From Escherichia coli (GTDB taxonomy: Bacteria; Pseudomonadota; Gammaproteobacteria; Enterobacterales; Enterobacteriaceae): a stretch of DNA of 64,000 nucleotides. The DNA is taken from NCBI RefSeq assembly GCF_022846255.1, contig NZ_AP025682.1, one strand, 5' to 3'. Within the stretch, counting starts at the first letter, position 1, and every line of letters starts with the position of its first letter. This document shows positions 36,001 to 42,000 of the stretch, piece after piece. A program made the position numbers.

Positions 36001-39000
36001 CCAGTCTAAGGTCTATCAATTCACTGACGCGAAGTCCATGAATGTAAGTTATTTGCAGCAATGCTTTATCACGGATTTCATTGCGTGTACCCGTTATAGC
36101 ATTAAAAAAAAGCGCCCATTCGCTGTTGGTGATGTATTTACGCATATTTCCTCCTATCAGAGTTATATGTAAATTTTACATTTTTAGATAAAAGGAAGAC
36201 TTATCAGTTTCGGAAGTGGGTGTTGTAAGCGTTACCCGAACGCCGTATTGACGTTATCTTGCTTGGTCTTCAAAGACAATAAGTAAGCCCCTATACTGAG
36301 ACGTGGTGGAAAAATCAGTTTACATCCAGGGCAATAACTTCTTCACACGATGGTCGTTCGTTGGTGTGTAGTGGATCGGTAATTCAGGACACCTCGAAAT
36401 CCTGTTAATGTTAAAACAGTGAAAATGAGGTGATGCATGATCAAAACTCGTCGGACTAAACGTACCTTTTCCCCGGAGTTCAAACTTGAAGCTATCGAGC
36501 AGGCGGTTAAATACCAGCGTGATGTCAGAGAAGTCGCGCTGGCACTCGAGCTCAACCCTGATCATTTGCGTAAATGGATACGGTTGTATAAGCAGGAACT
36601 TCAGGGTATTGAGCCCGCTGGTAATGCTATTACCCCTGAACAACGCGAAATTCAGCAGCTTAAAGCGCAGATAAAGCTCCCTGAGATGGAAAAAGAAATA
36701 CTAAAGCAAGCTGCCGTGTTGATGAGCAAAATCCCCGGTAAGCTGTCGCGCTAATCACACGGCTGAAAGTAAAGTGGCCAGTGCGGGTTCTTTGTCATTT
36801 ATTCGGTATTCACCGTAGCGTTTATTACATGCTGGTGAAGCGTCCTGTTAATGTGCAAAAAATTGAATTACGAAGTCGGGTGAGGGCTTTCCATGCTCTC
36901 AGTCGTGGCGCAGCCGGTAGCCTAGCATTCAGTCAGATGTTGCGCCAGAGTGGCGTTGATGCAGGCCGGTGGCTGGCACGACGGCTGATGCGGGAATGCG
37001 GGCTGACAGGTCGACAGCCGGTTAAACATCACTACCGGGTAAACGAAGACAAAAGTCCGCCATTGCCAAATATACTGAACCGGCAGTTTAACCCCGCCGC
37101 ACCAGACGCGGTCTGGTGCGGCGACATCAGTTTTATTCGCCTGCAGGACAAATGGTGTTATCTCGCGCTCGTTGTTGATTTATATTCACGTCGGATTATC
37201 GGTTCAGCCCTCCCATTAACCGCTGATGCTGAGTTGGTGTGCAGGGCTTTGCGTAATGCACTGGAAACACGACCGCGTGATGACCGCCTGCTGTTTGATT
37301 CAGAGCAATGTGTTCAGTATAAATGCAATAAATACAGAAAGTTACTCTGGCGTTATGGGGTAATGCAAAGTATGAGTCGCAGAGGGAATTGCCTGGATAA
37401 TTCGCTGATGGAAAGAGTCTTTCGCAGCCTTAAAAGTGAATGGCTTCCGAAAGGTGGTTATGGTGATTTTAGCCATGCGGTACGAGATATAAACCCGTGG
37501 ATTAATGGTTATTACAACGTTTATCGACCTCACACGAACAACGGTGGTTTACCGCCTTGCTTACATGAACAGGTTATCCCGGTGTCCTGATTTTGTGATC
37601 CACTACAAGTTATATGTGCTTGACTTTATGATTTTTTAGTTAAATAGAATAATTGGTGCAACTTTAAAGTCTTTTCTACTTAAAGGATACAACTTTATTG
37701 GCTCTACACAATTGCAGCGAAGTCGTCCTGAGCTATTTCCGAAAGATGAAAATTATTAGAGTCGCATTAAAAATGAGCTAATTTTGATAGTGGTTATCTT
37801 GTGATTATTTTCTAATGAGCCTGTGAACTGAAACCCTCCATGCTTAATATAAGGTGGAGGGAAAGATGATTAAAACTCCCCCAGTGGCCAGATCTTTATA
37901 AAATATGAACAGGTTGAAAAAATCAGCAACTTTGCTGTTTATTTATACTTAACCACTATGCATTAATGCTGCGTTATTTCATGATACCTAAGAAAAACCA
38001 GCGTTACGCAAATAATCAACGCTGGTTTTATCCGGTACGTTGCAATTATTTTTTAGCAGAACCCGCTTCTAATATTGAAACGATTGAGAACAACGTAAAG
38101 CATACCGCTCCCAAACCGACCAGAACCCGCGAAGGAATAAAATACCCTATGTCGGTCTGCGCCATTTCCGCAAGAAACGATGCCAGGAAAAGGCAAAACA
38201 GGCAGGTGAAGACGGGAATCATCGGTATTCTGTTGGCTAACGAACAGGTACGTCTCCAGACCAGTGCCAGTAGCCAGACTTTTGAGAATATGCTGTAACA
38301 GATCATTCCGAGGCAAATGAGAATAATGCCGGGAGCCAGTCGGGCGCTTGCATCGGAGCTGACTAACACGTATATGCCCTGCAGCACCGTGATTGAGCCG
38401 AGAATAATAACCCAATAACACCACAGCCAGTGCTCTTTGGATGAGAACGTATTACGTGTTTGATGGACGATTGTGGCAACAAGACCAATTAGACAGGCAC
38501 AGATTGCGGTTAACCCAAGCAATACGTGACCGGCGACATAATGTGGAGTTATGTCGGCACTACGTAACAGCGTAATAGACCAAATGAAACCGAGCAGGGT
38601 GAGTAAAACGGGAACGGCAATGAGGCAATTACCGATTAATGACGAATAAGCCTGTACCGGTGTTCCATCGCTCTTGCTCCCTGCTGCGTTTTTGGGAATG
38701 AGCAGAAAGTGACCGGATGACGCTGCCACTGTCGATACACAGGCGGCAATCATACCAACGCCAAAAATAACATGGCCGGCAACAAACTCGTCTGCCATCA
38801 CATCATTGCCTGCTAACAGTGCCCAACCCCATATCATGGTGATAATTGACCCCGCATAGCCAATAATGGGGAACAATGTATTGTAAAACGTATTAACGCC
38901 GCGCGTGAGCTGCGAAATGATAATAAATGCGGTAGTGAATAATGCCAGGCATATGGCTGCCAGAGAAATCAGCACATGACCCGCGACGAAATACTCACTT

Positions 39001-42000
39001 TGCCCAGAACTTTCCAGCACAAAGCCACCTAACGCGATACAAATTAAGCCCATAATTAAAGGGATTAATTTGAAAAGCCACCCGATATATATGTTCACTT
39101 TAAACTCCTCAGGTATCCCTGCTAATATTGAAATGTGCATTAATGATAATTTCAGCCTGTTAATATAATGACGAGATATCATTAAAGACAAATGCATAGC
39201 ATAACTATAGCGGGATTTACTTTGCAGAGCGCTACTTTTCAGCGTTCAAAAGGCCATGGTAAATAAATATTTATCCTAAGATTAATTCTTATTCTCTTGT
39301 TTTTTTCAATTATCTTCCAGGGAGGGATTCTTTTTCATTATTTGGTAAAAGACCGGATGGTATCGGTGCTTAAAATCATCGAACATATAAGTATTATTGC
39401 TTTGTATCATCGTAAATATGTCTTTCAGACATGTGTCATTTATTTTGTTACTAACAAGTCAAAAATATCACGGGTTATTTATGAAAGTATTTCACAATAT
39501 ATTTAAGCACATCTCTTCAAACCATCAAGATAAGCATTCAGATAAAGTTAACAGTCATCAACACCATGGCAAGGTTGATAAAAAACATCGTTCAAAGATA
39601 GTTGAAATTGATAAGCTGGATAAACATTTGCAAATAGATAACGATTTTGGCCTGCATATCATCTATTTCCTGCAACATGGCTGCTGGAACGTAACTGAAC
39701 ATAGTTCTCAGATAGAAAAAATATGGTTTTACAATAGTGAGCCATCTATAGATATTAAAGAATATAATAGTTTCGCCGATAATACTACTGACACGTTTAT
39801 CTTTACAATTATACCAGACAATAACCATGTGATAAAATTATCGTCTCCCATTACCGTTACGATTGAGCGTAAGGACGGTTATTATTTTATTAATTTCTCC
39901 GGGGATAAATCAGACATAATTTATAAAGTTGATGGGTTTTCTATCATAGAGAGAAATTTCTTTACTCTTCTTAGTGGTAATTTCAAACCTGACTGGCGTT
40001 GGGCTGTCTCTAAAGAGACGTTTACTAAGGAAAAGTTTGATAGCTATGTTGAATCTGTTTTTTCAAAAATAGACTTTTATAAACAGTGTGGTGTGATTAA
40101 CCCACAAAATGCCAACACGGCTTATTTTGGCGATACAGATGGAAGAGTAGGCGCTGTACTTTATGCATTGCTCGTTTCAGGGCATATAGGCATCAGGGAA
40201 AAGGGGTGGAGTTTATTATGTGATTTATTAAAACACGAAGACATGGCTTCATTCGCATATGAAAATAAAAAATTGAAAAAACTCTTCACTTTATTAGATA
40301 AGAGAGACATGTTCTTGAATGAGTTGCATCAACATGTTTTTTTAAAAGGCGATGCGATTACCCCTTGTATCTTCCTTGGGGATCATACAGGCGATAGATT
40401 TAGTACTATTTTTGGTGATAAATATATCCTTACTTTGCTAAATTCTATGCGAAATATGGAGGGTAATAAAGATAGTCGTATAAATAAAAATGTCGTCGTT
40501 CTGGCTGGAAATCATGAAATCAATTTTAATGGTAACTATAGTGCCCGACTAGCAAATCATAAACTCTCTTCCGGTGATACATATAACTTAATTAAAACGC
40601 TCGATGTTTGTAATTATGACTCAGAAACGAAAGTTTTAACCAGTCATCACGGAATAATAAGAAATGAAGAAAATGAATGTTATTGTCTAGGTGCTTTGCA
40701 GGTTCCATTTAATCAGATGAAAGACCCAATTGATCCTGAGGAATTAGCAAATATATTTAATAAAAAACATAAACAACACATGGATGATCGTCTTATCCAT
40801 CTAATTAGAAGCAATGCTATAGCATCCACACCTGTATATGACAATTATTTTAATAACACTACTGCTTTCAGACCAAAACCTGAAGATATCTTCAAATGTG
40901 GACAGACGCTCAAAAAAAGTAAACAGAAATATGGCCATTATGGATTAGGGGTAGATCAGCATCAAAAAATTGATAATTATATCATGGGGCTAAATTCCTG
41001 GAAGATAGCACCTAACGAACGTGGTGATAAAAAAGGTGTCCCAGGGCTTAGTTGTTTTCAACCACATTAAAACTCCATGAGTGCTGTGGTATGTCTTTTT
41101 AATCCTGCCAGTATTTCATAGTTTTTCTTAATCGATTGTAGAGGCATGTACTGATGACGCCTCTACAATCTTTAGGGACTTTCTCTACTATGAGATAAGA
41201 AATTTCATATTATGCTTTAAGGCTGAATGATTTGTGCAAAATATAATTATTTTCCCGTCGAACATGAGGTGTATGTCATAAGATTAAATGATAACTATGT
41301 ATTCCTTGCGGTGAATTATATGAGGTAAAAGATGAAACTTGGAACTGTGGCAGGCACTAACGACAGTATAACGACTATCGCAACAAATGATATGGTGCAA
41401 GAGCATGTTACTAACTTCACTAAAGAACTGTTTGGGTATATTGCAAATGGTATAGGTGATGATATATCAAGTATTGCCAGGACAATGCTCGGTGAAGTTG
41501 TGGAAAAAATTGATGATTGGCAAATAGAACGTTTCCAACAATCTTTTCAAGATGACAAAATTTCATTTACCATAGAAACGAATCATTCAGAAAAATATAG
41601 TATGCTATCGGGCATGCGTGCCCATATTCTACGTAGGAATAATAGTTATCAGTTTATTGTGACAATTAATAGTAAAAATTACGGTTGCCCTCTTGATGAT
41701 ACCGATATTAATTGGTGCAGCATTGTTTATTTACTTAATAATATGACAGTAAATGATAATGCTAATGATGTTGCAGTTACTGAGTCGTACAAACCCATCT
41801 GGGACTGGAAAATATCGCAATATAATGTATCTGATATTAAATTCGAAACAATTATAAAACCCCAGTTCGCTGACAGAATCTATTTCTCCAATTGTTCACC
41901 CGTTGATCCCACAAGTACCAGACCAACCTATTTTGGTGATACCGATGGCTCAGTCGGTGCAGTTTTGTACGCGCTTTTCGCAACGGGACATTTGGGAATT

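What the first reader, a model, noticed from the sequence alone, without database searches (positions are those of the whole stretch)
38046..39197. YhiM contains three internal repeats
The motif (Y/F)VAGHV(L/I) followed by a hydrophobic helix occurs three times at roughly 90-100 residue spacing, suggesting a triplicated two-to-three-helix module.
Basis: seen in the sequence. Interest (0 to 1): 0.3.

Follow-up and report, generated by a model that had tools for sequence, protein, structure and literature searches.

The report
YhiM: five repeated membrane hairpins
The E. coli inner-membrane protein YhiM does contain internal repeats, but there are five copies of a two-helix hairpin rather than three. 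The predicted structure is a ring of the kind seen in the SLAC1/TehA anion channels, which gives this poorly understood stress protein a testable channel-like architecture.

Summary
The exact motif [YF]VAGHV[LI] occurs three times in YhiM, at residues 37, 105 and 187 of the 350-aa protein. The spacing is 68 and 82 residues, not 90-100.

The three motifs are the best-kept copies of a five-fold repeat. Each unit is a ~67-residue hairpin of a variable odd helix and a conserved even helix. The motif has degenerated to LAPGIIL in unit 4 and FIPSRVL in unit 5.

- All 10 unit pairs match in profile comparison (P 3e-6 to 3e-16). Reversed controls, and all 25 odd-versus-even helix pairs, do not.
- AlphaFold2 gives a confident model (pLDDT 95, pTM 0.94).
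- Its best natural structural matches are TehA/SLAC1, the known five-hairpin, quasi-five-fold channels.
- No sequence similarity to TehA was found.

The gene and family (DUF2776) are known. I found no description of the repeat architecture in the searchable literature. A channel or facilitator function is inferred, not shown.

The parts
38046..39098 (-). yhiM coding sequence (350 aa plus stop), GTG start at 39098-39096, stop at 38048-38046
   Evidence: Pfam PF10951 E 4.7e-157. RefSeq annotates 1053 nt in near-identical genomes. GTG start and the transcription start 22 nt upstream were mapped experimentally in K-12 (PMC6604978).
39099..39197 (-). It holds the Shine-Dalgarno GAGGAG (39105-39110) and the position equivalent to the mapped transcription start (A at 39120).
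   Evidence: Sequence read; PMC6604978.
38901..39098 (-). Repeat unit 1 (aa 1-66): TM1 plus TM2, motif FVAGHVL at aa 37-43 (38970-38990), His41, Cys50
   Evidence: hhalign against units 2-5: P 2e-11, 3e-16, 2e-10, 4e-13. Unit-HMM match at aa 2-64, E 3e-22.
38694..38900 (-). Repeat unit 2 (aa 67-135): TM3 plus TM4, motif FVAGHVI at aa 105-111 (38766-38786), His109, Cys120
   Evidence: hhalign against units 1, 3, 4, 5: P 2e-11, 5e-13, 5e-12, 3e-6. Unit-HMM match at aa 69-132, E 9e-19.
38658..38693 (-). Cytoplasmic linker (aa 136-147) between units 2 and 3. It is the only break in the ~67-residue period and explains the 82-residue motif spacing.
   Evidence: Loop region after the short helix 133-139 in the model. 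Not covered by the unit-HMM matches.
38457..38657 (-). Repeat unit 3 (aa 148-214): TM5 plus TM6, motif YVAGHVL at aa 187-193 (38520-38540), His191, invariant Cys200
   Evidence: hhalign against units 1, 2, 4, 5: P 3e-16, 5e-13, 3e-9, 9e-11. Unit-HMM match at aa 151-215, E 2e-21.
38250..38450 (-). Repeat unit 4 (aa 217-283): TM7 plus TM8, degenerate motif LAPGIIL at aa 254-260 (38319-38339; family consensus IAPGCVL), Gly257, Cys267
   Evidence: hhalign against units 1, 2, 3, 5: P 2e-10, 5e-12, 3e-9, 1e-7. Unit-HMM match at aa 217-283, E 4e-20. Column statistics.
38049..38249 (-). Repeat unit 5 (aa 284-350): TM9 plus TM10, degenerate motif FIPSRVL at aa 320-326 (38121-38141), Arg324 in the His position, Cys333
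   Evidence: hhalign against units 1-4: P 4e-13, 3e-6, 9e-11, 1e-7. Unit-HMM match at aa 285-346, E 3e-20. Column statistics.
37993..38029 (-). Intrinsic-terminator-like hairpin (13-bp stem, 10-nt loop, then a U-run) downstream of the stop codon
   Evidence: RNA fold -20.9 kcal/mol, z -4.4, 0 of 200 shuffles as stable. Matches the stem-loop reported about 35 nt after the stop in K-12 (PMC6604978).

Best explanation
YhiM (DUF2776) is a single-chain, ten-helix inner-membrane protein made of five tandem copies of a ~67-residue helical hairpin, (A-B)x5. A is a variable odd-numbered helix running from cytoplasm to periplasm. B is a conserved even-numbered helix running back. B begins at the periplasmic face with the pattern phi-V-A-G-H-V-L-x-G-L-x-A-I-C.

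Units 4 and 5 keep the Gly/Leu/Cys skeleton but carry Cys/Ile and Arg where the His sits.

The five hairpins close into a two-layer ring around a pseudo-five-fold axis. The conserved B helices are inside and the variable A helices face lipid. This is the architecture of the SLAC1/TehA anion channels, but shifted by one helix. The inner helices therefore cross the membrane in the opposite direction.

What is shown: the five-fold sequence repeat, its register and its conservation. What rests on a high-confidence prediction: ring closure, which helices are inner and which outer, and the TehA-like fold.

What is only inferred: the protein acts as a channel or facilitator for small solutes along the central axis. 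The periplasmic mouth would be ringed by His41, His109, His191 and Arg324. A ring of conserved cysteines (Cys50, Cys200, Cys267, Cys333, with Cys120 two residues deeper) would lie about 9 residues further in. Such a pore could account for the reported GABA-export and copper phenotypes.
For: Repeat
- Cutting a 28-sequence family alignment (24-62% identity to the query) into five units gives hhalign probabilities of 88-98.7% (P 3e-6 to 3e-16) for all 10 pairs, in register over 42-63 columns. The 20 comparisons against reversed units give probabilities of 4.5% or less.
- An unsupervised self-comparison of the whole profile gives off-diagonal alignments only at shifts of 1, 2, 3 and 4 units (P 2.7e-23, 1e-23, 2e-9, 3e-8). 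The next hit has P 0.97.
- In the E. coli sequence alone, 7 of 10 unit pairs have z of 5.9 or more against 500 shuffles.
- Single helices: even-even pairs, 10 of 10 at 88-98%. Odd-odd pairs, 6 of 10 at P 1e-4 or better. Odd-even pairs, 25 of 25 at 4.1% or less. So the unit is a hairpin with two distinct helix types, and membrane-helix composition alone does not produce matches.
- Column statistics: the Gly before the His position is 95-98% conserved in units 1-4. Cys at +9 is 92-100% conserved in units 1, 3, 4 and 5.
- 131 of 140 family members of 300 aa or more have five unit matches.

Structure
- AlphaFold2 model: pLDDT 95.1, pTM 0.94, ten long helices.
- A circular permutant that starts at TM2, with the native termini joined directly, is predicted equally well (pLDDT 93.5, pTM 0.93; a 6-residue junction loop with both flanking helices intact).
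- Odd helices are variable with strong alpha-helical periodicity; even helices are conserved all round.

Topology
- K+R count is 10 in cytoplasmic loops against 2 in periplasmic loops. Prediction programs gave N-in/C-in in PMC6604978.

Function (literature)
- A yhiM deletion exports about 50% less GABA at pH 5, and overexpression raises export (PMC6604978).
- A yhiM deletion in CFT073 holds less copper, is copper-resistant and has Cpx activated (PMC11005409).
- TehA/SLAC1 are ten-helix, two-layer, quasi-five-fold hairpin channels with the odd helices inside (PMC3172217; PMC10645844).
Against: - All three-dimensional statements rest on AlphaFold2 models. I could not read their coordinates, so no symmetry axis, pore radius or His-His and Cys-Cys distances were measured.
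- No sequence relationship to TehA/SLAC1 was found: hhalign probability 0.3% (with a shallow TehA alignment), and no PF03595 hit.
- Periplasmic loops are acidic (8 D+E against 2 K+R), unlike an anion-channel vestibule.
- Transport has never been shown directly. The GABA effect is partial, and the copper phenotype depends on the strain and on Cpx.
- Gene neighbourhoods of homologues are not conserved and give no functional support.
Confidence: 0.8

Rival explanations
1. One reading: YhiM is a triplicated module of two to three helices, one per VAGHV motif, with a period of 90-100 residues.
For: Three exact motif copies. Units 1-3 are among the most similar pairs: U1-U3 P 3e-16, U2-U3 P 5e-13.
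Against: Motif spacing is 68 and 82 residues. Units 4 and 5, which lack His, match units 1-3 at P 2e-10 to 4e-13. Off-diagonal self-alignments extend to shifts of 3 and 4 units. The Gly/Leu/Cys skeleton is conserved in all five even helices. Ten helices divide into five hairpins, not three modules.
Confidence: 0.03
2. There is no true repeat. The similarity is the generic resemblance of hydrophobic transmembrane helices plus a short motif that recurs by chance or convergence.
For: Transmembrane segments have biased composition and often give spurious profile matches. At the DNA level only short chance matches are seen.
Against: Reversed-unit controls with the same composition score 4.5% or less. 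All 25 odd-versus-even helix pairs from the same protein score 4.1% or less, while all 10 even-even pairs score 88-98%. The unrelated ten-helix TehA profile scores 0.3% against YhiM. TehA shows no self-repeat signal with the same method (P 0.68), while YhiM as a single sequence does (P 4e-5).
Confidence: 0.02
3. The five-hairpin ring is real, but YhiM is not a conduit. It would be a membrane-embedded sensor or modulator, for example of CpxA or of envelope state. The His and Cys residues would bind copper or sense pH, and the GABA and copper-content effects would be indirect.
For: Loss of YhiM activates Cpx independently of NlpE. Copper resistance of the mutant needs CpxAR, and its lower copper content is attributed to raised copA expression (PMC11005409). 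Phenotypes are pleiotropic: acid, heat, low osmolarity, copper. No conserved transporter-type operon context.
Against: Overexpression raises GABA export across pH 2.5-5.5 (PMC6604978). The closest natural fold is a channel fold. Conservation is concentrated in the inner helices rather than on an outer, partner-binding surface.
Confidence: 0.3
4. The five hairpins pack as an open, curved helical-repeat solenoid in the membrane rather than a closed ring.
Against: The top match covers 300 of 350 residues. Joining the native termini with no linker leaves a 6-residue loop, intact flanking helices and pTM 0.93. The permutant aligns 270 of TehA's 308 residues.
Confidence: 0.1

Closest known systems
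SLAC1 / TehA (Pfam PF03595; tellurite-resistance/dicarboxylate transporter family; PDB 3m71, 7wnq)
   Different: No detectable sequence similarity. In SLAC1/TehA the odd helices form the pore (PMC10645844). In YhiM the even helices appear to be inner, so the inner helices run in the opposite direction across the membrane. The YhiM repeats are still obvious in sequence, whereas TehA's are not with the same method. TM-score is only 0.40-0.45. Oligomeric state and conductance of YhiM are unknown.
DUF2776 (Pfam PF10951), the family to which YhiM belongs
   Same: Full-length match, E 4.7e-157. All full-length homologues examined share the five-unit layout.
   Different: Nothing differs. The window's protein is an ordinary E. 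coli YhiM, 99% identical to a cluster of 4,700 sequences. What is added here is the repeat and fold description, which the two papers that mention DUF2776 do not give.
De novo designed single-chain helical barrels and toroids (PDB 8u1a, 8qai sc-CC-7, 6xr1 dTor_9x57R)
   Different: Soluble, artificial proteins with different repeat numbers. The resemblance is geometric only.

Membership tests
DUF2776 (PF10951) | Match to the family HMM above the gathering score over its full length | tested here: met
   523 bits against a cut-off of 26.1; profile positions 2-347 of 348.
Internally repeated protein (tandem hairpin repeat) | Significant off-diagonal profile self-similarity with a constant period, above composition-matched controls | tested here: met
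   The period is about 67 residues, with five copies. Reversed and odd-versus-even controls are negative.
SLAC1/TehA (PF03595) | Sequence match to the family model | tested here: not met
   No PF03595 hit for the whole protein at E of 1 or less, or for single units at E of 10 or less. hhalign of the YhiM profile against a shallow TehA profile gives probability 0.3%.
SLAC1/TehA (PF03595) | Ten helices from five hairpins in two layers around a quasi-five-fold axis | tested here: inconclusive
SLAC1/TehA (PF03595) | Pore formed by the odd-numbered helices, with even-numbered helices outside | tested here: not met
   In YhiM the even helices are conserved all round and the odd helices are variable with a lipid-face periodicity. 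The match to TehA improves when the chain is made to start with an even helix.
SLAC1/TehA (PF03595) | Trimeric assembly and anion conductance gated by a pore phenylalanine | not testable with these tools
   Needs an experimental structure and electrophysiology.

The most novel reading that the evidence does not exclude
DUF2776 is a second natural family with the SLAC1/TehA-type five-hairpin ring. It is unrelated in sequence to TehA, or diverged beyond recognition, and is circularly shifted by one helix, so it sits the other way up in the membrane. Its five repeats remain legible in sequence. Its periplasmic collar (three His plus Arg) and mid-membrane cysteine ring would form a pH- or copper-sensitive central pore. 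That pore would directly explain YhiM's GABA-export, acid and copper phenotypes.
Probability: 0.3. Interest if true: 0.65.

Novelty: new variant of a known kind. Interest (0 to 1): 0.42.

Why it matters
YhiM is conserved in E. coli and has been linked experimentally to acid survival, GABA export, growth at high temperature and low osmolarity, and copper and Cpx envelope stress in uropathogenic strains. It still has no mechanism and is filed as a domain of unknown function.

Recognising it as a five-fold hairpin ring of the SLAC1/TehA type turns a list of phenotypes into a structural hypothesis with specific residues to mutate: three His and one Arg at the periplasmic mouth, and one Cys per repeat.

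For membrane-protein evolution it is a rare case. An odd-numbered (five-fold) internal duplication is still visible in sequence, and the same ring architecture appears in the opposite helix register to the only known natural example.

Tried and rejected
- HHrepID itself is not installed. I used hhalign on sub-alignments and hhalign -alt self-comparison instead.
- The AlphaFold-database fold libraries were unavailable, so no survey of other predicted five-hairpin families was possible.
- Model coordinates are not exposed to scripts. No symmetry axis, pore radius or His/Cys distances could be measured. I substituted a conservation-periodicity analysis and a circular-permutation test.
- A sequence search of the PDB with the family profile found nothing (best E 0.35, a designed protein).
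- Each unit scanned alone against Pfam at E of 10 or less hit only DUF2776, plus sub-threshold small-hairpin families: a holin, DUF4079, DUF2975 and DUF805. There was no hit to DUF308/HdeD, which I had considered as a possible relative.
- The TehA homologue search returned only relatives of 81% identity or more, so the TehA profile was shallow.
- Gene neighbourhoods of six diverse homologues share no genes. I did not re-find the gadB-yhiM-gadC arrangement reported for Clostridium perfringens (PMC6604978).
- DNA-level repeat search found only short matches. One 15-nt match links the unit 1 and unit 5 motifs, but it is out of frame and judged chance. The duplications are therefore ancient.
- The consensus terminator scan missed the yhiM terminator because its loop is 10 nt. 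Folding confirmed it.
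Full report
WHAT IS AT THE COORDINATES

The ORF at 38046..39197 on the minus strand (383 aa from the first ATG) is E. coli yhiM. It matches Pfam PF10951 (DUF2776) end to end with E 4.7e-157. 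It is 99% identical to a cluster of 4,700 E. coli sequences.

A GTG at 39098 is preceded by GAGGAG at 39105-39110. RefSeq annotates 1053 nt in near-identical genomes. Primer extension in K-12 placed the transcription start 22 nt upstream of that GTG (PMC6604978). The protein is therefore 350 aa, and 39099-39197 is leader and promoter. A 13-bp terminator hairpin follows the stop codon (37993-38029; -20.9 kcal/mol, z -4.4).

THE OBSERVATION

[YF]VAGHV[LI] occurs exactly three times, at residues 37, 105 and 187.

- By composition, VAGHV is expected 0.0004 times per protein. None of 200,000 shuffles had two copies.
- The motif forms the first turns of model helices 34-64, 102-130 and 184-214.
- It is conserved across homologues down to 24% identity.
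- The spacing is 68 and 82 residues, not 90-100.

THE REPEAT IS FIVE-FOLD

Two further, degenerate copies follow at the same period: LAPGIIL at 254 and FIPSRVL at 320.

I cut a diverse 28-sequence alignment (A2) into five units: residues 1-66, 67-135, 148-214, 217-283 and 284-350.

- All ten unit pairs gave hhalign probabilities of 88-98.7% (P 3e-6 to 3e-16), aligned in register. Twenty comparisons with reversed units gave 4.5% or less.
- Without any prior cutting, self-comparison of the whole profile gave off-diagonal alignments only at shifts of one, two, three and four units. These had P 2.7e-23 over 258 columns, 1e-23, 2e-9 and 3e-8. The next hit had P 0.97.
- The E. coli sequence alone shows the repeat: 7 of 10 pairs have z of 5.9 or more against shuffles.
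- At the level of single helices, all 10 even-even pairs match (88-98%). Six of 10 odd-odd pairs match at P 1e-4 or better. None of the 25 odd-even pairs does (4.1% or less).

The unit is therefore a hairpin of two different helix types, (A-B)x5, and membrane-helix composition does not explain the signal.

The stacked alignment and column counts give a shared B-helix pattern, phi-V-A-G-[H/H/H/C/R]-V-L-x-G-L-x-A-I-C.

- The Gly before the His position is 95-98% conserved in units 1-4.
- Cys at +9 is 92-100% conserved in units 1, 3, 4 and 5. Unit 2 has its Cys at +11.
- The 82-residue spacing comes from the longer cytoplasmic connection between units 2 and 3 (loop residues 129-154), part of which (aa 136-147) lies outside both units.
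- At the DNA level there is no repeat, so the duplications are ancient and maintained at the protein level.

STRUCTURE

AlphaFold2 with a 60-sequence alignment gives pLDDT 95.1 and pTM 0.94, with ten long helices.

- No solved structure is related by sequence.
[quoted passage not shown] Their odd helices line the pore (PMC10645844).
- Foldseek is much less convinced. Nothing reaches E 0.001, and TM-scores to TehA are 0.40-0.45.

WHICH HELICES ARE INSIDE

Across 60 homologues the odd helices are variable. TM3, TM5 and TM7 have mean entropy 1.9-2.1 bits, with strong alpha-helical periodicity, as expected for a lipid-exposed face. The even helices are conserved all round (0.96-1.32 bits) and richer in small residues. 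That predicts the even helices are inner, the reverse of TehA.

I tested this by re-ordering every sequence of the alignment to start at residue 32 (TM2) and end at residue 31 (TM1), joining the native termini with no linker.

- The permutant is predicted as confidently as the native chain (pLDDT 93.5, pTM 0.93).
- The junction is a six-residue loop, and both flanking helices are intact. This argues that TM10 and TM1 are neighbours, so the ring is closed.
- Scores to the designed proteins fell: 21.1 to 18.9, 19.2 to 17.8, 17.2 to 14.4.

So the YhiM even helices correspond to the TehA inner helices.

YhiM is N-in. K+R count is 10 in cytoplasmic loops against 2 in periplasmic loops, and prediction programs agree (PMC6604978). 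SLAC1/TehA are also N-in; that is from my own knowledge of the family. On that basis the inner helices of the two families cross the membrane in opposite directions.

RELATIONSHIP TO TehA

No sequence relationship was detectable. Profile-profile probability is 0.3% (with a shallow TehA profile). There is no PF03595 hit for the protein or for its units. With the same method and equally shallow input, TehA shows no internal repeat (P 0.68), whereas YhiM as a single sequence does (P 4e-5). I therefore describe YhiM as working like, and folded like, SLAC1/TehA, but not as a member of that family.

FUNCTION

Shown by others:
[quoted passage not shown] 2005).
- A deletion exports about half as much GABA at pH 5, and overexpression raises export (PMC6604978).
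- In CFT073 a deletion lowers cellular copper, raises copA and cpxP expression, and confers Cpx-dependent copper resistance (PMC11005409).

Inferred here: the conserved inner helices surround a central path. The periplasmic end of that path carries His41, His109, His191, residue 258 (Cys or Ile) and Arg324. Some nine residues deeper it carries one conserved Cys per repeat. A small-solute channel or facilitator is the most economical reading. His and Cys side chains could give pH or copper sensitivity.

Against a simple anion channel, the periplasmic loops are acidic. A sensor or modulator role acting through Cpx remains a serious rival. Neighbourhoods of six diverse homologues share no genes.

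NOVELTY

The gene, the family and the ten-helix prediction are known. Only two papers in the searchable library mention DUF2776, and neither mentions repeats, symmetry or TehA. No paper links YhiM with TehA, SLAC1 or internal repeats.

The finding is an ordinary gene with a previously undescribed, moderately interesting architecture.

Noticed in passing
window 39099-39197 (- strand): The longest ORF adds 33 codons upstream of the true GTG start. A study of uropathogenic E. coli attributes a copper phenotype to an N-terminal 'MXXXM' motif of YhiM that is present only in some strains (PMC11005409). In K-12 the mapped transcript starts 22 nt before the GTG (PMC6604978), so any motif upstream of that point would not be translated there. 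In this window the upstream peptide reads MHLSLMISRHYINRLKLSLMHISILAGIPEEFK. Whether that paper's motif lies in such an annotation-dependent extension was not resolved.
   Followed up: partly
window ~23400-37600: About 14 kb of accessory DNA lies between yhiN (22149-23348, +) and yhiM. It holds integrase and IS remnants (25516-26145), an EAL-domain protein (26155-26964, -), a TibA/AIDA-type autotransporter adhesin (27817-30960, -) with its TibC heptosyltransferase (30953-32173, -), an unscanned 205-aa ORF (32497-33114, -), a tyrosine recombinase (33942-34604, -) and an IS3 transposase remnant (36781-37590, +). A related strain annotates a LuxR-type regulator at the position corresponding to the 205-aa ORF, and carries Tn7-like tns genes beside the same island.
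   Followed up: partly
L001 (NZ_CP178552.1), locus 742-19728, next to yhiM at 20389-21441: In another E. coli strain a complete sil/pco silver-copper resistance island sits at the same yhiM-proximal junction. This is notable because YhiM itself has a copper phenotype. The junction seems to be an insertion hot spot; PMC8417528 was listed in the yhiM search but not read.
   Followed up: no
window 39397-41070 and 41332-42954 (+ strand): Two paralogous DUF4049 proteins (YhiJ/YhiL family) lie in a low-GC stretch (0.31-0.35, against 0.47-0.50 in yhiM). The first also carries an N-terminal DUF6860 domain. Their function is unknown.
   Followed up: no
window 38125-38139 and 38979-38993: A 15-nt direct DNA match (87%) links the unit 5 motif (YFIPSRV) and the unit 1 motif (YFVAGHV). 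The spacing is 854 nt, not a multiple of three, so the match is out of frame. I judged it chance, because the unit 5 peptide consensus is conserved family-wide.
   Followed up: yes
window 37966-38298 (+) and 38053-38424 (-, other frame): ORFs of 110 and 123 aa overlap yhiM on the opposite strand or in another frame. They are mechanical ORFs inside a well-supported gene, and nothing suggests they are expressed.
   Followed up: no
L010/L011, gene at 4603-5088: In one distant homologue's contig, an mscL gene lies about 1 kb upstream of the DUF2776 gene. This was seen in a single lineage only, so I did not treat it as evidence. I note it because YhiM has a reported low-osmolarity growth phenotype.
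   Followed up: no
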